Source: Candidatus Multivoradales bacterium (GTDB taxonomy: Bacteria > Acidobacteriota > Thermoanaerobaculia > Multivoradales > J023). Taken from it: DNA of 64,000 nucleotides. The position numbers and the translations under genes were made by a program. Each line of letters starts with the position of its first letter. Positions within the stretch are counted from its first letter, which is position 1. Under the pieces are notes generated by a model. It saw only the letters and a program-made list of their open reading frames with translations. It ran no database searches and had not been told where the DNA came from. The stretch is taken from the NCBI GenBank assembly GCA_965248925.1, contig CBDFLE010000006.1, forward strand, positions 3,648,001 through 3,712,000. Reading direction: 5' to 3'. Positions 1 through 42,155 of this stretch are shown one piece after another.

Positions 1-711
1 TACCTGTTGCATGCCAGCGGTGCTGGCGGTCTGGGTTCGGCGGCAGTCACGGTCGAGCTGGGTGAGGTGTCGCCAGCACCTGTTGAATTGCAGTTGGTGC
101 GCAGCGGTTGGGTTTCGGGTCGGGTGGTGGCCGTGGGTGCCGAGCAGGTCGGTCTGTCGGGGGTCAAGATCGAGGTTTCCGTGACCTCGCCGGCATTTAC
201 CCACTGGAGCGCCACCTCTGACTTGGATGGCTATTTCCGGTTGTTTCTTCCCGTCGGAGCAGATCGGGCGGCGGTGCAAGTTTATGCGCCATCCGTCGGA
301 CTGTGGGCCGCTTGCCGCGGTCTGCCATCCGCTGGCGAACAATGGCTTTGGGCGCTACCCGCGGCGGGGGAGCTAGTGTTCGATATCAAGGCTGACGAGT
401 CGTTACCGCCGGTCTCAGCCGGACAGCTCTTTGTGGCGACCAGTGGTGGCGGCCTGTTGCGGATGACAGATTTTTTTCGCTGGCAAGCGATGCGCGGCGA
501 GCCGAGAGATGCCGAGAAATTTGCTGGGGTTGCCGCGGATTCCTACGCCCTGGACTATCACCTGGGCTCGCGGTGGACGCTGGTCGACCAGCTCTGCACC
601 CAGGGCTACGGGACACCCGCGAAAGGGTGGGAGATCTTGGCAGCTGGTGGCAGTGTTGAGCTGGCATTGGATCTACGCCCGGCACAGAAAGCCGAGGCTT
701 CTCTGCCCTGA
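1..711 (+). CDS. C-terminal part of a probable secreted protein with carboxypeptidase-regulatory-like (beta-sandwich) repeats; 5' end probably outside window
   Basis: ORF 7..711 has G-x-V-x-G-R-V and 'TSDLDGYFRL' motifs typical of these repeats; frame is open to the window edge. Confidence 0.5.
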   Translation, partial: YLLHASGAGGLGSAAVTVELGEVSPAPVELQLVRSGWVSGRVVAVGAEQVGLSGVKIEVSVTSPAFTHWSATSDLDGYFRLFLPVGADRAAVQVYAPSVGLWAACRGLPSAGEQWLWALPAAGELVFDIKADESLPPVSAGQLFVATSGGGLLRMTDFFRWQAMRGEPRDAEKFAGVAADSYALDYHLGSRWTLVDQLCTQGYGTPAKGWEILAAGGSVELALDLRPAQKAEASLP

Positions 712-35090: not shown

Positions 35091-36140
35091 ATGCCCCCGC
35101 CCCAGCAGCTGGCGCCGCCTGACAGCCCGCCGCTCAAAGACACCCTGTCGCGGCCGATGACCGATCTGCGGATTTCGGTAACTGATCGCTGTAATTTTCG
35201 CTGCACCTTTTGCATGCCGGCGGAGCAGAAGTACGAATTCTTGCCCAAGCCGCAAATTCTCAGCTTCGAGGAGATCGAGCGGCTGGTGAAGATCTTTGTT
35301 GGCCTGGGGGTGCGCAAGCTGCGATTAACCGGTGGGGAGCCCTTGCTGCGCTCGCAGATCGCCCACTTGGTCGAGCGTTTGGCGAAGATCGACGGTATCG
35401 ACGATCTGGCCTTGACCACCAACGGCTGGCTGTTGGCGCAGCAGGCCGAGGGGCTGGCGGCGGCCGGGCTCAACCGGGTGACGGTGAGCTTTCACTCTCT
35501 AGATCCTGAGATCTTCGGTCGGCTGAGTGGCCTCGGGATGGACCTAAATCGGGTGTTTCAAGGGCTGCGGGCGGCGACTCGGGCGGGCCTCGGGCCAGTG
35601 AAGCTGAACGTGGTTGCGGTACGCGGCACCAATGAGCACGAGATCGTCGATCTCGCTCGCTTTGCCCGTGAGGCGGGTTACGTGCTGCGATTTATCGAGT
35701 ACATGGATGTCGGAACGGTCAATCGCTGGGATCCGCAAGCAGTGATCTCGGCCCGGCAGATCGTCGAGCAGATCGACGCCGTGTTGCCGTTAGAGGCAAT
35801 CGATCGCGAGCATCCTGGCGATGTCGCCACGCGCTACCGCTACCTCGATGGCGGCGGCGAGATCGGCGTCATCCCTTCGGTGACGCAGCCGTTCTGCGGC
35901 AACTGCTCACGGGTGCGGCTGTCGGCGGAGGGCACGCTCTACACCTGCCTGTTCGCTGCCGGTGGCCAGGATCTCAAGCAGCCGCTGCGAGCAGGAGCGA
36001 GCGATGAGGAGCTGGCTGAGCGCATCGCCGGCATCTGGGGCTCGCGCAGCGACCGCTATTCCGAGAAGCGCACCGCCCAGCTCAAGGCGGGGCGTTTCGT
36101 GCCGGCCGCGAAAGTCGAGATGTTTCGCATCGGTGGCTGA
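35091..36140 (+). CDS. moaA: GTP 3',8-cyclase (molybdopterin biosynthesis radical SAM)
   Basis: LRISVTDRCNFRCTFCMP, RLTGGEPLLR, FCGNCSRVRL..C, C-terminal IGG. Confidence 0.97.
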   Translation: MPPPQQLAPPDSPPLKDTLSRPMTDLRISVTDRCNFRCTFCMPAEQKYEFLPKPQILSFEEIERLVKIFVGLGVRKLRLTGGEPLLRSQIAHLVERLAKIDGIDDLALTTNGWLLAQQAEGLAAAGLNRVTVSFHSLDPEIFGRLSGLGMDLNRVFQGLRAATRAGLGPVKLNVVAVRGTNEHEIVDLARFAREAGYVLRFIEYMDVGTVNRWDPQAVISARQIVEQIDAVLPLEAIDREHPGDVATRYRYLDGGGEIGVIPSVTQPFCGNCSRVRLSAEGTLYTCLFAAGGQDLKQPLRAGASDEELAERIAGIWGSRSDRYSEKRTAQLKAGRFVPAAKVEMFRIGG

Positions 36141-36197
36141 TCGTGCCGCTCCCGAAGTGAACCACGAACTCGCGGCTCAACACATTCTAGGTAGCAC

Positions 36198-36230
36198 AAA
36201 AAAAAGCAGCCCGTCCTTATTGGACGGGCT
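36198..36230 (-). terminator. Rho-independent terminator (minus strand)
   Basis: 9-bp perfect stem AGCCCGTCC-AATAA-GGACGGGCT followed by GC-T8. Confidence 0.9.
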
Positions 36231-36570
36231 AAGAGTGGGGAGGGACCGCTAGCGCCCTTGGGGACCACAACGACGCAGCGGTTGCCTGTTTCGACACCCG
36301 AAGGTGTCTGGCATGTCGCCCGAACCACCAGAGTGGATAGGTCTCCGGACAAGGGAGCGAAACCAGTCCGAAGCCCTTCGCCTGCCGGCTGACCGAGATC
36401 GAAACCTCGACCTGCCGACGCGACCTCCAGGATGACAGTCGAACGCGGGTGTCCAGGGGGGGACAGATTGCGTCACGACCGCGAGCGACCTACAAGCCGA
36501 AACTCGTCGATAACTCGATCCGATCTCAAGGACCGGCTCACCGCAACGAGAGGTCTCGCGCGAGCGGCGT
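36198..36570 (-). ncRNA. Candidate novel highly structured non-coding RNA (~370 nt)
   Basis: Own promoter and intrinsic terminator, no credible ORF, about 10 helices visible by eye including three UUCG-capped hairpins; G-U pairs work only on the minus strand. Confidence 0.7.
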
Positions 36571-36573
36571 TGA

Positions 36574-36604
36574 ATACTACATCAAACATATTGAGATTTG
36601 TCAA
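36574..36604 (-). promoter_or_regulatory. sigma70-like promoter driving the candidate ncRNA
   Basis: Perfect TTGACA (36604-36599), AT-rich spacer, then TGTAGT (N17) or TAGTAT (N19) in an otherwise GC-rich region. Confidence 0.6.
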
Positions 36605-36661
36605 TAGACGAGGAGAGAAATTGCCAACCGCGGCTCTTGGTGCGCTGGTGGTGGCGGTGTG

Positions 36662-36821
36662 GACGTCGTAGATCCAGGAGCCGTGCTAGATGTTTAACTC
36701 GCGGACCTCCCCGGCGCGGGCGAAGATCTGGTTTTTCTCTCATACCGTCATCTTCGCCATTGTTGGAGTCGCTTTCCAGCGTAGTGAGATTTCTCGGCCG
36801 TTCGGACGCCTAAGAGTAGTG
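36662..36821 (-). pseudogene. Decayed duplicate of the 3' part of the DUF4340 gene (41181-41336)
   Basis: 72/88 identical nt by hand alignment of 36662-36749 with 41181-41268, including a 20-nt exact match tcgtagatccaggagccgtg; translates EKNQIFARAGEVRELNI*HGSWIYDV vs EKSEILARVDEIHEFNTYHGSWIYEV. Confidence 0.85.
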
Positions 36822-36988
36822 AGTCCCAATGCTAAGTTTTGTTGACCTCCCGTTCCCGACGGCTCAGGCCCGATCGCCGGGTATGAGAGTCTAGATAGCT
36901 CTACAACGGAACCACCTCGAGTCAGGCTGTAGCACGAACTGGACCGAAACCTGCGCCAACGCCAACTGATGAGGGAGGGAAGAAAAAC

Positions 36989-37260
36989 CTGCGAATTCAA
37001 CCTTTCACCCTCATCCTTCTTGGCCTCTCAATCTCCCTGCCGCTGAACGCCCAACTCCCCCCAAGCCACCAGCGCGGAGTGACCGCCGACACCGCCTATC
37101 AGGCCAGCGACCTGGATCAGTTCAACCTCTTCAACGGCAGCCTGTCGGTAGCTCTGCCAATTGGGATCACTTACCCAGTAGGCCCGTCTCTGAGCTTCAG
37201 CTTGACCGCCACCTACAGCTCTGGCGGCTGGGAATACGACGGGAGCGCCTCCAATCTTGC
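36989..37260 (+). pseudogene. Truncated N-terminus of a secreted RHS/YD-repeat-type protein
   Basis: Strong SD GAGGGAGG then CTG in place of ATG; signal peptide RIQPFTLILLGLSISLPLNA; DLDQFNLFNGSLSVALPIG..SFSLTATYSS resembles the 'VNLFNGNL..IP...L.L.YNS' RHS N-terminal motif; similarity ends after about 90 codons. Confidence 0.6.
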
Positions 37261-37770
37261 CGGTTCGGGCGAGAAGCTTCGAAGATTCTGCGGAAGATCT
37301 GGTGCGGCATATCTCGTGCGTGTCGTAAACGGTTGAAAACAATCGCGTGCGACTTGGGTGATACTCTGGAAGCACCCTGGGAGGAGTAGGTCTCGGGGGA
37401 GCACCTCGGGTCAATTGCCTATTCCGACGAAACTGACCAGCCATTCCGATCGAAACCGACCACTTGTCGGAGCGAAGCGACGCTGGCGCTCTCCTCAGTT
37501 GTAAGTGTCCACTTTCGTTGTAGCTGGAGCCCTCCTTCCGGCTCTTCTTCTTGATTGATTGTATTCAAATAACCCGTCGTCGGGGCTGTGCGTAGCTGTG
37601 GGAAACGCAGGTTGGGGGGCAGGGGGGCGTTTTCCAAGCGGTTGTGGGAATCGCAGAGCGATTTCCACAACCGCGGCAGCTTCCACAGTCCATCTTGGGT
37701 CGGGTCCGGATCGGGCCGCAGGCCCGCTGATGGGTCCGGATCGGCGATCGCTTCAGCATGCTCTTGGATC

Positions 37771-38535
37771 TCACCTTGCCTCTCGCTGGGCGGCCTTGCG
37801 AATACCGCCGGCTCTCTTCGCCCGCATGGAGTCACCGTCCACCGCGAGCTTGTAGGCGCCGTGGACAATGCGATCGAGGATGGCGTCGGCCAAGGTCGGA
37901 TCGCCGATGACCTCGTACCAGCTCTCAACCGGTAGCTGGGAGGTCACCAGCGTGGAGCGGTTGCCGTAGCGGTCCTCAAGAATCTCGAGCAGGTCGCGCC
38001 GCTCGCTGGCCCCGATCGGCGCCAGCCCCCAGTCGTCGAGGATGAGCAGGTCTGTGCGAGCATAGCTCTTGAGCAGCTTCTCGTAGCTACCATCACCCCG
38101 CGCGATGGCGAACTGGCGAAACAGCCTCGGCACCCGCAGGTACAAAGCGGTGTAACCCTCCCGACATGCCTTGTGCGCGAAGGCGCAGGCGAGAAAGGTC
38201 TTGCCCACCCCGGCCTTGCCGGTGATCAGCACGTTGAGATGCTCGGCGATCCACTGGCACGAGGCCAGGCGCAGGATCTGGCCTTTGTCCAGGCCCCTCT
38301 TGGCTCGCCAGTCGATGTCTTCGATGGCCGCCTGCTCGCGCAGCTTGGCTTTTCGCAACCGCGCTATCAAGCGGCGGCTGGATCGCTCGGTCGCTTCGCG
38401 CTCGACCAGCAGCCCGAGGCGCTCTTCGAAGGAGAGCTCTGAGACATCGACCATCGACAGCTGCTCCTCAAAGGCTTTGGCCATACCGTGGAGCTTGAGC
38501 GCGGCGAGTTGATCGAGCGTCGCGTGCCTCAGCAT
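37771..38535 (-). CDS. istB: IS21 helper ATPase IstB
   Basis: GKAGVGKT Walker A, LILDDWG Walker B, TSQLPVESW, DAILDRIVH; start overlaps istA stop. Confidence 0.95.
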   Translation of the reverse strand: MLRHATLDQLAALKLHGMAKAFEEQLSMVDVSELSFEERLGLLVEREATERSSRRLIARLRKAKLREQAAIEDIDWRAKRGLDKGQILRLASCQWIAEHLNVLITGKAGVGKTFLACAFAHKACREGYTALYLRVPRLFRQFAIARGDGSYEKLLKSYARTDLLILDDWGLAPIGASERRDLLEILEDRYGNRSTLVTSQLPVESWYEVIGDPTLADAILDRIVHGAYKLAVDGDSMRAKRAGGIRKAAQREAR

Positions 38536-40103
38536 GGCGGCGTCTCCTCGCGGCGCGCGGCACTGTAGTAGCTGGCGCCGCGGACGTTGCGATGCTCGAT
38601 CGGCGCCGTCACTTCGGTGGGCTCGGGCGCTGCTTGCTGGTCCAGGCCGCTCTTCAGGATCGACTTCACGCTCTTGTAGGACAGGCCGTGAATGGCGAGC
38701 GCGCGGCGGCACGCAGCCTCCAAACGATTGGCACCATAGGTCTTGCCCAGGCGCATCAGCCCCAGACACGAGCGAAAGCCGTGCTGAGGATGGGAGCGGT
38801 TAAGCATGATGGTCTCCACCAGTTCGGCCGTCGCCTGGCCTGTTTTCGCCGCCCAGCTGATCAGCCGTGTCGGTGTCCACTCCAGGTACGCCTGGTGCGC
38901 TTTGGGCATGTGCTCGCTCTGGGTCGTGTGCCGACCCCGACACCGATTGCGACGATGAGCAGCCACACGCTTGCCGCGATCGAGCACCTCCACCAGTTGC
39001 GCCGTCGCCCGCAGATCGAGCTGCTTCTTGATCAGCTGGTACGGCACACTGTAATAGTGGCCCTCGAACTCGACGTGGTAGTCCGGGGCAACGCGTACCT
39101 TCTTCCATTCGGCAAGCTCGTAGGGCTGGAGCGGCAAAGCACCCAGAGCAGGACGATCGACCTGCTCGAACAGCGCTCGGCGCGAGACGCCCAACACCTT
39201 CAGCGGACGGTCGTTAAGCTCGACCAGAAGCTTCGCGATGCTCTCGTTGAGCTCTCGCAGGCTGAAGAACTGCTGGTTACGCAGCCGGGCCAGAATCCAG
39301 CGCTCCACTTGCAATACACCGTTTTCGACCTTCGCCTTGTCTTGGGGCTTCCTCACCCGCGCCGGCACCACCGCCACGCCGTAGTGCTCGGCCAACTCCG
39401 CGTAGGTGCGATTGATCTCCGGCTCGTAGCGGCACGGGCTGGTCACGCCGCTCTTCAGATTGTCCGGCACCACCAGCTCGCTCACCCCGCCCAGAGCCGC
39501 GAAGGTCCGCACATGAGAGCCGATCCAGTCCTCCAGGCCCTGGCTCCACGTTGATTCGGCATAGGTGTAGTTGCTCGCCCCCAGCACCGCCACGAAGATC
39601 TGCGCTTCGCGCTCTTTGCCAGTCGCCGGGTCGATCACCCTCACGGTCTGTCCGGCATAGTCGACGAACAGCTTCTCGCCCGCCCGGTAGGCTTGGCGCA
39701 GGCACACATCCAGGCGCCCTTCCCAGATCCGGTACAGCTGACAGAAGCGGCTGAGACCGTAGCCGTCAGGATGGTCCTCCCGGTACTCCTGCCACAGCAG
39801 CGACAGGGTTACGCACTTCTTCTTCAGCTCGCCATGCACCTTGGTCCAGTCGGGCAAGGCTCGCTGACCACCCCTCCGAAGCGGCTGCGGCCGAGGGTAC
39901 AGGCGTTGCTCCAGCTCAGCGTCGCTCAAAGCTGCTACTTGCTCCCAGCTCAGGCCTTCAACCTTGGCTCGCAGCAGGTAGTTGCACACCGTCCCGTGGC
40001 CCAGCCGAACCGACCGTCCGATCTGGCGGTGCGACAGGCCATGCTGCCATTTCAGTCTCAGTACCTCGCGTATCTTGCGCATCGATGTCCTCACTCTCGG
40101 CAT
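38529..40103 (-). CDS. istA: IS21 DDE transposase IstA
   Basis: HTH N-terminus, FVDYAG, VPDNLKSGV, KPQDKAKVENGV, HYYSVPY. Confidence 0.95.
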   Translation of the reverse strand: MPRVRTSMRKIREVLRLKWQHGLSHRQIGRSVRLGHGTVCNYLLRAKVEGLSWEQVAALSDAELEQRLYPRPQPLRRGGQRALPDWTKVHGELKKKCVTLSLLWQEYREDHPDGYGLSRFCQLYRIWEGRLDVCLRQAYRAGEKLFVDYAGQTVRVIDPATGKEREAQIFVAVLGASNYTYAESTWSQGLEDWIGSHVRTFAALGGVSELVVPDNLKSGVTSPCRYEPEINRTYAELAEHYGVAVVPARVRKPQDKAKVENGVLQVERWILARLRNQQFFSLRELNESIAKLLVELNDRPLKVLGVSRRALFEQVDRPALGALPLQPYELAEWKKVRVAPDYHVEFEGHYYSVPYQLIKKQLDLRATAQLVEVLDRGKRVAAHRRNRCRGRHTTQSEHMPKAHQAYLEWTPTRLISWAAKTGQATAELVETIMLNRSHPQHGFRSCLGLMRLGKTYGANRLEAACRRALAIHGLSYKSVKSILKSGLDQQAAPEPTEVTAPIEHRNVRGASYYSAARREETPPC

Positions 40104-40317
40104 CCAATCCTCCTTTCAAGGAGGCTGGAATACCCCAATTGTGAGGAGCGCGCTACCGTCGAACTCCGCCGTGGCCAGGATTCCGATCCAATCTGACCAC
40201 CCATTCCGATCGACCCGGAAAAGTGGTCACTTTCGATCGGAATCGATGGTCAGATTCCGTTGGAATCACTGGTCACTTTCAATCGGAATCGGTGGTCGGT
40301 TTCCGTCGGTGCAGGCA

Positions 40318-41063
40318 TAGGTACCTGACGATTGTCGTCGACCATGACCGCCGTCGCTTCGTTTGGACGGGCGAAGGCAAGAGTTCCGAGACACAGGCCC
40401 TTCTTCGAACTCCTGGGCGAGCAACAGTGCCAGAAGATCGAGACGGTCACCATCGACCTTTCCGCAGCCTTCATCAAGGCCGTCCGTGAAGGGCTGTCGA
40501 AAGCAGAGGTGGTCTTCGATCGCTTCCATGTACAGCGCTTGGCCTCCGACGCGGTTGACGAAGTGCGGCGCAGCATCGTACGCGAGCTGGCGATCGATCC
40601 CGAGAGGGCTCGAGCCGTCAAGAGCACGCGATACGTCCTGCTCGAGCATCCCTGGAACCTGAGTCGCGCGCAGCGCAGAAAGCTGGCGGAAATCCAAGCT
40701 ACGAAACGGCGCCTGTACCGGGCTTACCTCCCCAAGGAGACGTTGGCTCAAGCCCTCGACTATCGCCAACCCTGGCGGGCAGAGATGGCACTCGGCGAAT
40801 GGCTGGCTTGGGCGTCGAGATCTAAGCTCAAGCCCTTTGTCAAGGCCGCTCGAACGATCCGCAAACACCGGGCCGGCATTCTCGCCTACATCAGAACACG
40901 CCTCACCAATGGACTCGTCGAAGGCATCAACGGGAAGATCAGAATGATCGCCCGACGTGCTTTTGGTTTCCACCCCCATCAAGCAATCTCTGCCATGATC
41001 GTCCTCAACTGTGGCGGCATCAAACTACAGCCTCCGGTACCCACTGTAAGTTGAGGAGAGTCC
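40318..41063 (+). pseudogene. ISL3-family transposase remnant (5'-truncated by IS21, frameshifted) with right end
   Basis: YLTIVVDHD..GEGKSSET / frameshift / TIDLSAAF..VVFDRFHV..TNGLVEGINGKIRMIARRAFGF; stop at 41054 followed by gaggagagtcc end-like motif. Confidence 0.85.
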
Positions 41064-41120: not shown

Positions 41121-42155
41121 TCAGGCGTTCTCGACCAAGTCGCGCTTCTTCAGCCGGGCTTTGTCGGCGGTAGCTTCGGAGACTTCGTAGATCCAGGAGC
41201 CGTGGTAGGTGTTGAACTCGTGGATCTCGTCGACGCGGGCCAGGATCTCGCTTTTCTCTTTCACCGTCTCTTCGTCGTCATCAGGGTCGATTTCGATCGA
41301 GGTGATGGTGGAGAAGCCCTGGATGCGTAAGTAGTGTTTGCCGTCGCGGCTGGCAACCGCCAGGTCGTAGCCGGTCTTGTCGTCGAGTTCGATGCTCAGG
41401 GAATCGCGAAAGTACAGCCCTTGCACCTCGGGGTCATCAGCGAGAAAATGATGGTCGAAACGCAAGTAGGAAAGGGCTCCCTTAGCTTGACTGGCCTTGG
41501 AGGTGTTTTCTTTCTTACCCGCCGGTAGGTCCGCCAACTGCAAAGTGCCGTCGATGGTTTCAAATGAGAAGTCGACGCCGCGGATGGCCACCACGCTGCT
41601 CGCCTGCACATCGAGGATCTCCTGGTCGAGGAAGTCGTCGGCGCCGCTGGAGAAACTCACCCGCGAGCTGGTGAGGTAGATCGCGGTGTCTTCGCCGTCG
41701 GTGCGGCGGATGTAGTTGCCATCACCGTCCTCGCGCTCGGCACCGATCAAGAAGCTGACCATGTCGTTGCCAGCGGCGTTCTTGAGCACTACCTGGCGGG
41801 TGTCGTCGCCAGCTTCTTTGACCTTGAGTTCCTCAGCCAACGAGTCGCCAGCGCCAATCTTTTTTTCCAAACCCAGGTCGAGGACGTCGCGGATGAAGCG
41901 ATTGACCGCCTCGTTGCGGGTGCGATAGCCGCCGGCGGTGACTACTGAGAAACGGTCGTTACCGCGTCGCAAGTGAGTCGTCTCGCCCTCCGCGGTGATC
42001 AGGATCTCGGCGATCTCGTCAGGATTGAGGTTGGAGAGGAACTTCTGTCCGCGCTCGAAACGCTCGGCGCGGGTGACGCTGTCGCGATAGCTCCAGGCCG
42101 AAAGTAGCAGCAGCAGGGTCGCAGCCGGCAGCAGAATGCGGTTGATCTTCAGCAT
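41121..42155 (-). CDS. DUF4340-like periplasmic accessory protein
   Basis: N-terminal TM, acidic beta-rich body (SFLIG..NYIRR..IYL); last gene of gldAFG-like operon. Confidence 0.75.
   Translation of the reverse strand: MLKINRILLPAATLLLLLSAWSYRDSVTRAERFERGQKFLSNLNPDEIAEILITAEGETTHLRRGNDRFSVVTAGGYRTRNEAVNRFIRDVLDLGLEKKIGAGDSLAEELKVKEAGDDTRQVVLKNAAGNDMVSFLIGAEREDGDGNYIRRTDGEDTAIYLTSSRVSFSSGADDFLDQEILDVQASSVVAIRGVDFSFETIDGTLQLADLPAGKKENTSKASQAKGALSYLRFDHHFLADDPEVQGLYFRDSLSIELDDKTGYDLAVASRDGKHYLRIQGFSTITSIEIDPDDDEETVKEKSEILARVDEIHEFNTYHGSWIYEVSEATADKARLKKRDLVENA

What the first reader, a model, noticed from the sequence alone, without database searches (positions are those of the whole stretch)
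36198..36604. Candidate novel ~370-nt structured ncRNA with its own promoter and terminator
Seen: between moaA (convergent) and the island lies a self-contained minus-strand unit. It has TTGACA (36604-36599) with an AT-rich spacer and -10-like box, and a 9-bp stem + T8 terminator (36230-36198). Read 5'->3', the RNA folds almost throughout. The 5' domain is closed by CGCGAGACCU (36560-36551) / AGGUCGCUCGCG (36491-36480). It encloses CCGGUC-cuuga-GAUCGG (36536-36520), UCGA-guua-UCGA and ACGAGU-UUCG-GCUUGU (36507-36492). Further helices: UGUCC-cccccu-GGACA (36465-36450); GUCGGC/GCCGGC enclosing CGAGGU-UUCG-AUCUCG (36409-36394); UUCGGAC/GUCCGGA (36372-36344); CCAC-ucug-GUGG; UGCC/GGCA enclosing GACACC-UUCG-GGUGUC (36308-36293); ACCGCU-GCGUC/GGCGC-U-AGCGGU (36282-36245). 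Three UUCG tetraloops and several G-U pairs that would be A-C mismatches on the plus strand point to selection on minus-strand RNA structure. Established: the size resembles tmRNA or RNase P RNA, but their invariant motifs are absent. Inference: an undescribed large ncRNA class (ribozyme, protein scaffold/sponge or regulatory RNA).
Basis: partly seen in the sequence, partly recalled or inferred. Interest (0 to 1): 0.9.

Follow-up and report, generated by a model that had tools for sequence, protein, structure and literature searches.

The report
Orphan noncoding RNA unit near moaA
A 370-base stretch with a promoter-like site and a strong terminator but no gene is most likely a lineage-specific small regulatory RNA or a leftover of a wrecked operon, and there is no support for a new class of large structured RNA.

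Summary
The terminator (36231-36198, minus strand) is one of the strongest in the genome.

The claim that the RNA "folds almost throughout" does not hold. The full-length z-score of -4.05 comes mostly from the terminator hairpin. Without it, the 339-nt body scores -1.74 or -1.51. A quarter of random strand-windows from the same genome score -1.5 or lower. One structural signal remains: the minus strand folds better than the plus strand by more than any of 26 background windows.

The region shows no coding signal and matches no Rfam family. RNase P RNA and tmRNA lie elsewhere in the genome.

No homologue was found in 299 other genomes of the order, 400 of the phylum, plasmids, phages or pattern scans. 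Two metagenome runs hold short contigs about 95% identical to the body.

The -35 box is a perfect TTGACA, but the good -10 box sits 19 nt away. That spacing is near background frequency in this genome.

The unit lies among insertion-sequence debris, next to a pseudogene fragment.

Verdict: a plausible orphan sRNA-type gene (about 45%) or a relic (about 30%). Low to moderate interest.

The parts
36599..36604 (-). -35-like box, a perfect TTGACA
   Evidence: Read. It belongs to one of 108 TTGACA-N16-19-TANNNT sites in the 8-Mb genome, of which 89 lie in crudely defined non-coding DNA.
36574..36581 (-). -10 candidates: TAGTAT (36579-36574, 19-nt spacer) or TGTAGT (36581-36576, 17-nt spacer, lacks A at position 2, preceded by TGA)
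   Evidence: The strict scan calls no promoter. Genome-wide spacer counts are 17 nt: 49, 18 nt: 37, 19 nt: 9, and 20-22 nt: 2-6, so a 19-nt spacer is near background.
36232..36570 (-). Putative RNA body, about 339 nt, non-coding
   Evidence: GC by codon phase is flat at 0.61/0.61/0.69, against 0.67/0.46/0.79 in moaA. No protein relatives were found. z is -1.74 on the minus strand and +1.06 on the plus strand.
36380..36425 (-). Most stable internal hairpin (GUCGGC...GCCGGC enclosing the CGAGGU-UUCG-AUCUCG hairpin)
   Evidence: -21.2 kcal/mol when folded alone. The 120-nt window 36380-36499 has z -2.43 on the minus strand and +0.5 on the plus strand.
36293..36308 (-). Hairpin GACACC-UUCG-GGUGUC, with a C(UUCG)G tetraloop
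   Evidence: It is present in the MFE and centroid folds.
36245..36282 (-). Long hairpin with a UCCCC-containing apical region
   Evidence: -20.8 kcal/mol alone. It is kept in all folds. The relatives in runs X5 and X6 have 1-nt deletions at 36250 and 36253 (table 4).
36456..36462 (-). C7 run in the loop of hairpin UGUCC-CCCCCU-GGACA
   Evidence: Mean unpaired probability 0.72.
36236..36244 (-). CCCUCCCCA tract (window 36244-36236) just upstream of the terminator, preceded by U at 36245. It contains CCUCC, which I recall as the anti-Shine-Dalgarno core.
   Evidence: It lies inside the weak sub-threshold match to Rfam suhB/mmgR at 36193-36272 (28.1 bits, cut-off 41).
36198..36231 (-). Intrinsic terminator: 10-bp stem, AAUAA loop, U8 tail. 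It works on the minus strand only, because no T run follows the hairpin on the plus strand.
   Evidence: -18.4 kcal/mol. It is one of 112 strict terminator-like sites in the genome. The X6 relative has a 1-nt deletion at 36217, which is in the loop.
36635..36809 (-). Context: pseudogene fragment of a DUF4340 paralogue, C-terminal part
   Evidence: 97 of 126 nt match window 41181-41305, with TAG in place of TAC and a 1-nt gap. tblastn against DUF4340 residues 291-334 gives E = 1.4e-8.
36911..37372 (-). Context: diverged fragment of a multi-copy repeat
   Evidence: 76-84% identical to about a dozen other places in the genome.
37416..40317 (-). Context: IS21-family element (istA 38529-40103, istB 37771-38769)
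   Evidence: Pfam IstB_IS21 2.1e-75, plus rve and Mu-transpos_C_2. There are 20 other full-length copies at 99-100% identity. No target-site duplication is seen at its flanks.
35091..36140 (+). Context: convergent moaA
   Evidence: Pfam Radical_SAM and Mob_synth_C.

Best explanation
The stretch 36604-36198 on the minus strand is a lineage-restricted, non-coding transcription unit of the small-regulatory-RNA kind. An AT-rich promoter-like site would start an RNA of about 370 nt near 36570, and a strong intrinsic terminator would end it at about 36200. Inferred: that the unit is transcribed from its own promoter, and everything about what it does. My preferred mechanism, at about 40% if the RNA is real, is base-pairing through exposed C-rich segments. 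These are the C7 loop at 36462-36456, UCCCC at 36264-36260, and the CCCUCCCC tract just before the terminator hairpin and U-tail. They could pair with G-rich ribosome-binding sites of mRNAs, possibly helped by Hfq, which the genome encodes. It is not a member of any described RNA family. Nothing shows that it needs a large defined tertiary fold.
For: 1. Non-coding. GC by codon phase is flat. The 75-aa ORF and the 70-aa frame-0 translation have no relative among 5.8 billion protein clusters. tblastx against the organism's own genome gives nothing better than E = 0.001.

2. Terminator. It has a 10-bp stem and U8 on the minus strand only. No intact same-strand gene ends within 1.5 kb upstream of it.

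3. Promoter. The -35 box is a perfect TTGACA. Of the 108 TTGACA-N16-19-TANNNT sites in the genome, 89 lie in the roughly 22% of DNA that is crudely non-coding, and some sit directly upstream of tRNA genes. This is the only such site followed by a strict terminator within 30-600 nt on the same strand.

4. Strand asymmetry. Body z is about -1.5 to -1.7 on the minus strand and +1.1 to +1.2 on the plus strand. None of the 26 background windows reached that gap.

5. Exposed C runs. Predicted unpaired probability summed over C runs is 14.9, against 7.9 +/- 3.1 in shuffles, and 1 of 150 shuffles reaches it (a post hoc statistic).

6. Relatives in metagenomes. Short contigs from runs X5 and X6 (two samples, one study) cover 36235-36387, 36199-36325 and 36403-36549, with 5-7 differences each. 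One deletion falls in the terminator loop. The X6 contig that reaches 36199 carries 27 further letters that did not align to the window (tables 4 and 8).

7. Hfq is encoded in the genome (56.9 bits).

8. A second, much shorter unit with TTGACT-N17-TAGTAT, CCUCC motifs and a terminator exists elsewhere in the genome (L127).
Against: There is no expression evidence of any kind.

The body folds no better than 25% of random genomic strand-windows, and the MFE structure makes up only 0.0004-0.0006 of the ensemble.

The strict promoter scan finds nothing. The good -10 box needs a 19-nt spacer. Sites with that spacing number 9 in the genome, against 2-6 for the clearly non-functional spacings of 20-22 nt and 49 and 37 for 17 and 18 nt.

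A promoter-like site followed by a terminator-like site is expected roughly 0.4-2 times per genome by chance. This is my arithmetic from the counts.

Only 28 of the 112 strict terminator-like sites lie within 100 nt downstream of a gene end, so such sites are not all functional.

No homologue was found in 23 genomes of the family, 299 other genomes of the order or 400 of the phylum, either by BLAST or with two single-sequence covariance models.

The unit sits among insertion-sequence and pseudogene debris.

The two deletions at 36250 and 36253 in the relatives fall in one arm of a predicted helix. No compensating change is visible to me.
Confidence: 0.45

Rival explanations
1. Non-functional relic. 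The terminator and the AT-rich stretch are what remains of the 3' end of an ABC-transporter-like operon (gldG-like gene, then DUF4340 gene) that insertions and rearrangement destroyed. The 340 nt in between would be an old 3' untranslated or intergenic region whose hairpins are what any 64%-GC sequence gives.
For: A DUF4340 pseudogene fragment ends about 30-60 nt upstream of the TTGACA. An intact gldG-like/DUF4340 pair lies 4.5 kb upstream on the same strand. A repeat fragment and an IS21 copy without a target duplication show that the locus was rearranged. Body z is within background. The 19-nt spacer is near background frequency. Synteny is not conserved: in 28 relatives the DNA downstream of moaA is coding almost at once and shows no similarity to this stretch.
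Against: The -35 box and the terminator are perfect, while the neighbouring pseudogene is already broken. The strand asymmetry of folding is unusual. Contigs about 95% identical to the body occur in two other metagenome samples.
Confidence: 0.3
2. One reading: a large, highly structured ncRNA of a new class, such as a ribozyme, a protein scaffold or a sponge.
For: It is about 370 nt long. Several stable hairpins, including three with UUCG loops, are present. The minus strand folds better than the plus strand. C runs are predicted to be exposed. It matches no Rfam family.
Against: The body z-score is ordinary. No homologue was found in any assembled genome searched, so there is no covariation. 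The UUCG excess is not significant (p = 0.067).
Confidence: 0.08
3. Cargo or accessory RNA of a mobile element, moved horizontally and therefore found in different surroundings in different organisms.
For: It lies next to a repeat fragment and an IS21 copy. It is unrelated to whatever follows moaA in relatives. In run X6, a contig about 95% identical to the 3' end continues past 36199 with 27 letters that did not align to the window (table 8).
Against: It is single-copy in this genome. BLAST of plasmids and phages found nothing. Two exact-pattern scans of viral contigs found nothing. No recombinase, reverse transcriptase or nuclease gene that uses a guide RNA was recognised beside it.
Confidence: 0.08
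4. A small protein gene or a decayed protein gene.
For: Minus-strand frame 0 has only one stop in 140 codons. ORFs of 75 and 98 aa can be drawn.
Against: GC by codon phase is flat. The translations are Arg/Gly/Ser/Pro-rich. Two protein searches found no relative, and tblastx against the genome found nothing significant. I saw no start codon 5-10 nt downstream of the GGAGG at 36432-36428 (reading).
Confidence: 0.04
5. Partner in convergent transcription with moaA. moaA has no T-run terminator of its own, so its transcripts may run into this unit and form duplexes with the minus-strand RNA.
For: In 35500-37500 the only terminator-like site is the minus-strand one. On the plus strand the same hairpin is followed by CTAAGAGT, not by T's.
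Against: This is pure inference. The unit ends 58 nt short of the moaA stop codon, so it does not overlap the coding region.
Confidence: 0.05

Closest known systems
Trans-acting sRNAs with C-rich, anti-Shine-Dalgarno-like seeds ahead of an intrinsic terminator. Examples recalled, not tested here: alphaproteobacterial MmgR (Rfam suhB, RF00519), the CcsR/'cuckoo' sRNAs with CCUCCUCCC loops, and staphylococcal RsaE and RNAIII with UCCC loops.
   Same: Hairpin, then a C/U-rich tract (CCCUCCCC), then a GC-rich terminator hairpin and a U-tail. Further C runs are predicted in loops. Hfq is present in the genome. Rfam's suhB/mmgR model aligns end to end with 36193-36272.
   Different: The score of 28.1 bits is below the cut-off of 41, and much of the aligned length is the terminator hairpin and U-tail. 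The putative RNA is about 370 nt rather than 70-150 nt. It comes from a different phylum. No homologues, targets or expression are known.
RNase P RNA and tmRNA, which are of similar size
   Same: Length of about 350-400 nt, and stable hairpins.
   Different: There is no Rfam or ARAGORN match here. The genome's real copies are at C5:523431-523831 (294.7 bits) and C6:2766993-2767348 (145 bits). Those RNAs score z -3.47 and -2.82 in the test where this body scores -1.5.
Large structured bacterial ncRNAs of unknown function. Names such as OLE, GOLLD, ROOL, HEARO and raiA are recalled, and I did not check that each is in Rfam 15.
   Same: A non-coding stretch of several hundred nucleotides with many hairpins, next to mobile DNA.
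   Different: Those families were defined by many homologues with covariation. Here no homologue was found in assembled genomes, and no Rfam model matched even at E <= 10 apart from terminator-driven hits.

Membership tests
Any Rfam 15 family (4227 models) | Score at or above the family's gathering cut-off | tested here: not met
   0 matches in the whole window. In 35900-36900 at E <= 10 there were 4 matches, all below cut-off. The best was suhB/mmgR at 28.1 bits against 41.
tmRNA | tRNA-like ends and a tag reading frame recognised by ARAGORN or RF00023 | tested here: not met
   ARAGORN found 0 genes in the window. RF00023 hits C6:2766993-2767348 at 145 bits, not this locus.
Bacterial RNase P RNA type A | Match to RF00010 | tested here: not met
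   The only match in the genome is C5:523431-523831 at 294.7 bits.
suhB/MmgR sRNA (RF00519) | Covariance-model score of 41 bits or more | tested here: not met
   28.1 bits, E = 0.0016 for a 1-kb search. I treat it as a resemblance in layout only.
Independent trans-acting sRNA gene (a kind, not a family) | Own promoter | tested here: inconclusive
   Perfect TTGACA, but the strict scan is negative. The A2/T6 -10 box is 19 nt away, a spacing near background frequency.
Independent trans-acting sRNA gene (a kind, not a family) | Rho-independent terminator with a U-tail at the 3' end | tested here: met
   10-bp stem, 5-nt loop and U8, on the minus strand only.
Independent trans-acting sRNA gene (a kind, not a family) | No protein-coding capacity | tested here: met
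Independent trans-acting sRNA gene (a kind, not a family) | A discrete transcript is made | not testable with these tools
   No RNA run was listed. All runs that were laid are contigs of unknown kind.
Conserved structured ncRNA class | Homologues in several lineages with compensatory base changes | tested here: not met
   No homologue by BLAST in 60 relatives, 299 other genomes of the order or 400 of the phylum. None with covariance model R1 in 60 relatives or R2 in 39. The short metagenome contigs at about 95% could not be read letter by letter.
Conserved structured ncRNA class | Folding energy clearly below shuffles and below the genomic background | tested here: not met
   Body z is -1.74 or -1.51, against a background mean of -0.58 with sd 1.23.

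The most novel reading that the evidence does not exclude
The unit is a real RNA of about 370 nt that environmental relatives keep at about 95% identity. It carries several exposed C-rich loops and works as a multi-site regulator or sponge for G-rich ribosome-binding sites, or for a protein that binds C-rich RNA. It would be a founding member of an RNA family from a lineage with almost no described sRNAs. One review's table counts 4 distinct annotated sRNAs for Acidobacteria (PMC9029176, one table passage seen).
Probability: 0.12. Interest if true: 0.6.

Novelty: new member of a known kind. Interest (0 to 1): 0.3.

Why it matters
If the unit is transcribed, it would be an unannotated regulatory RNA in a poorly studied soil-type lineage. 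With the second, shorter CCUCC-bearing unit seen elsewhere in the genome, it would hint that regulation by sRNAs that pair with ribosome-binding sites reaches beyond the phyla where it was described. If it is a relic, the case shows that a strong terminator can inflate a whole-region folding z-score, and that hairpins picked out by eye in 64%-GC DNA are not evidence of a structured RNA.

Tried and rejected
Known families. Rfam at gathering scores over the whole window and at E <= 10 on 35900-36900, plus ARAGORN, gave nothing usable.

Homologue searches, all negative:
- BLAST in the organism's own genome. The unit is single-copy, and the short hits are chance.
- BLAST in 60 relatives, 299 other genomes of the order and 400 of the phylum. 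The 23-45-nt hits in G033, G045 and G104 lie inside long ORFs and are chance.
- Covariance model R1 (36198-36325) in 60 relatives and R2 (36340-36432) in 39 relatives. Both were built from this one sequence and its predicted fold, so they are weak probes.
- Exact-pattern scans of genome contigs, viral contigs and metagenome contigs: 0 each.
- moaA-anchored metagenome loci.
- BLAST of plasmids and phages.

Synteny. The 1.5 kb downstream of moaA in 28 relatives shows no similarity and, in most, no comparable non-coding gap.

No internal or tandem repeats of note were found.

Expression. No RNA holder was listed by the look-up of sequencing runs, so nothing can be said about expression.

Cover in the laid runs. 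In X5 and X6 I saw no contig of 95% or more on moaA or on 36596-37015. This is absence of cover at depths of about 2.5, so I do not use it as evidence.

Side trail. C-rich motifs upstream of strict terminators genome-wide number 11 of 112, against a 5.2% background. The most striking cluster, C6:504362-505040, turned out to be tandem small Cys-rich ORFs, not sRNAs.

Supplementary files of papers were not consulted. One literature search and one passage gave only background.

Full report
**What is at the coordinates.** On the minus strand, TTGACA lies at 36604-36599. An AT-rich stretch follows it, with TGTAGT 17 nt downstream and TAGTAT 19 nt downstream. The terminator scan finds one site in 35500-37500. 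It has a 10-bp stem and a 5-nt loop at 36231-36207, followed by CUUUUUUUU, on the minus strand. On the plus strand the same hairpin is followed by CTAAGAGT, so it can terminate only minus-strand transcription. The strict sigma-70 scan calls no promoter.

**Is the folding more than chance?** The 373-nt stretch 36570-36198 has z = -4.05 on the minus strand and -0.73 on the plus strand (my own shuffles gave -3.97 and -0.93). Most of this comes from the terminator hairpin (-18.4 kcal/mol).
- Without the terminator, the 339-nt body 36570-36232 scores -1.74 with 4 of 100 shuffles as stable, or -1.51. The plus strand scores +1.06 and +1.21.
- In 26 random 339-nt windows of the same genome, read on both strands, z has mean -0.58 and sd 1.23, and 25% of the 52 values are -1.5 or lower.
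- This genome's RNase P RNA and tmRNA score -3.47 and -2.82 in the same test.
- In 120-nt sliding windows, the terminator windows stand out on both strands (-2.6 to -3.2). Two body windows stand out on the minus strand only: 36380-36499 at -2.43 and 36500-36619 at -2.24.
- The MFE fold is 0.0004-0.0006 of the ensemble.
- UUCG occurs 7 times against 3.8 in shuffles, p = 0.067.

So "folds almost throughout" is what a 64%-GC sequence gives anyway. Two signals remain. The gap between the strands is about 2.7 z-units, larger than in any of the 26 background windows (largest about 1.7). C runs are predicted to be unpaired more than in shuffles, at 14.9 against 7.9 +/- 3.1, with 1 of 150 shuffles reaching it. 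I chose that statistic after seeing the sequence.

**Not coding, and not a known RNA.**
- GC by codon phase is 0.61/0.61/0.69, against 0.67/0.46/0.79 for moaA.
- The 75-aa ORF (36249-36476) and a 70-aa frame-0 translation have no relative among 5.8 billion protein clusters.
- tblastx against the genome gives nothing better than E = 0.001.
- Rfam at gathering scores finds nothing in the whole window.
- At E <= 10 the only notable match is suhB/mmgR on 36193-36272, at 28.1 bits against a cut-off of 41. The alignment covers a small hairpin, a CUCCCU-like tract and the terminator.
- ARAGORN finds nothing.
- RNase P RNA and tmRNA are elsewhere in the genome.

**Surroundings.** moaA (35091-36140, plus strand) converges on the unit. 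Upstream on the minus strand lie, in order:
- a fragment of a DUF4340 paralogue (36635-36809). It matches window 41181-41305 at 97 of 126 nt, with a TAG and a 1-nt gap;
- a diverged fragment of a multi-copy repeat (36911-37372);
- an IS21-family element (37416-40317). It has 20 other full-length copies in the genome and no target duplication at these flanks.

The intact gldG-like and DUF4340 genes lie beyond the IS. The unit therefore sits in a rearranged patch. In 28 relatives with a moaA match (best 73% amino-acid identity), the DNA downstream of moaA is coding almost at once and shows no similarity to this stretch.

**Homologues.** The unit is single-copy in its own genome. BLAST found no homologue in 60 relatives including all 23 genomes of the family, in 299 other genomes of the order or in 400 genomes sampled from the phylum. 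The few 23-45-nt hits lie inside ORFs. Two covariance models built from this sequence found only the sequence itself. Exact-pattern scans, moaA-anchored metagenome loci, plasmids and phages gave nothing.

The one positive result comes from sequencing runs. X1-X4, all from one sample and possibly the source, hold the whole stretch. X5 and X6, from two other samples of one other study, hold small shares. Laid on the window, X5 has a 151-nt contig on 36235-36387 with 7 differences and 2 gaps. X6 has contigs on 36199-36325 (5 differences, 3 gaps) and 36403-36549 (7 differences). Depth is about 2.5. The gaps are at 36217, which is in the terminator loop, and at 36250 and 36253, which are in one arm of the long hairpin. 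The X6 contig that reaches 36199 has 27 more letters that did not align to the window. So a relative about 95% identical exists in the environment. I could not read its letters, so no covariation test was possible.

**How good are the promoter and terminator as evidence?**
- The genome has 108 TTGACA-N16-19-TANNNT sites. Of these, 89 lie in the roughly 22% of DNA that is crudely non-coding, and 47 of the 89 have a same-strand gene start within 300 nt. Some of the rest sit just upstream of tRNA genes. The sigma-70 consensus therefore works in this organism.
- Spacer counts peak sharply at 17 nt (49 sites) and 18 nt (37 sites). There are 9 sites at 19 nt and 2-6 at 20-22 nt. A 19-nt spacer, as here, is close to background.
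- There are 112 strict terminator-like sites, and only 28 lie within 100 nt downstream of a gene end.
- This locus is the only one where a promoter-like site is followed by a terminator-like site within 30-600 nt on the same strand. My arithmetic from these counts gives about 0.4-2 such pairs per genome by chance.

The pairing is suggestive, not decisive.

**Reading.** Most likely, at about 45%, this is an orphan sRNA-type gene. It would have a promoter of imperfect spacing, an RNA of about 370 nt, exposed C-rich tracts including CCCUCCCC directly before the terminator, and an Hfq-type 3' end. The genome encodes Hfq. If it is real, the mechanism I prefer is pairing with G-rich ribosome-binding sites. 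That is inference from layout only.

The main rival, at about 30%, is a relic of the 3' end of a destroyed operon. Smaller rivals are cargo of a mobile element, a protein gene, and interplay with moaA read-through.

**Novelty and score.** At best this is a new, unannotated member of a well-known kind. Interest is 0.3. The boldest reading the evidence allows is a conserved, multi-site C-rich regulator founding a new family, at a probability of about 0.12.

Noticed in passing
L127 (G000:C6:4559100-4559700), about 402-508, plus strand: Outside the window. TTGACT-N17-TAGTAT is followed by a unit of about 65 nt: a GAGGAGG...CCUCCUC hairpin, then UCAUCCCUCCCAAC, then a GC-rich terminator with T7. 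It lies just after a gene that ends at 356. It looks like a compact sRNA candidate with anti-Shine-Dalgarno-like motifs. Rfam gives only ncS16 at 23.6 bits against a cut-off of 48.
   Followed up: partly
window 37416-40317: An IS21-family element (istA and istB) with 20 other full-length copies at 99-100% identity in the 8-Mb genome. The copy here has no matching target-site duplication at its two flanks, which suggests recombination between copies.
   Followed up: partly
window 36635-36809, minus strand: A pseudogene fragment of a second DUF4340 gene. It matches the C-terminal part of the intact gene at 41121-42155 (97 of 126 nt identical over 36662-36787 against 41181-41305), with an in-frame TAG and a 1-nt gap.
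   Followed up: yes
window 36911-37372 and L011-L013: A fragment 76-84% identical to about a dozen other places in the genome. Its best matches lie in a repeat of more than 3.7 kb that has about 8 copies at 93-95% identity. ORFs of that repeat have no Pfam match, except for an Ig-like (Big_9) domain on the opposite strand near its end.
   Followed up: partly
window 40314-40500: The other flank of the IS21 copy belongs to a different repeat with 4 further copies at 90-95% identity. The 238-aa ORF at 40266-40982 runs from it into the IS and has no Pfam or NCBIfam match.
   Followed up: no
L125 (G000:C6:504200-505600), minus strand: Outside the window. A tandem array of small Cys-rich ORFs (starting MNSHSYICPHC... 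and similar), each followed by a near-identical 12-bp-stem terminator.
   Followed up: no
window 36140-37400, plus strand: moaA has no T-run terminator of its own within 1.3 kb downstream, so its transcripts may read into the candidate unit in antisense.
   Followed up: no
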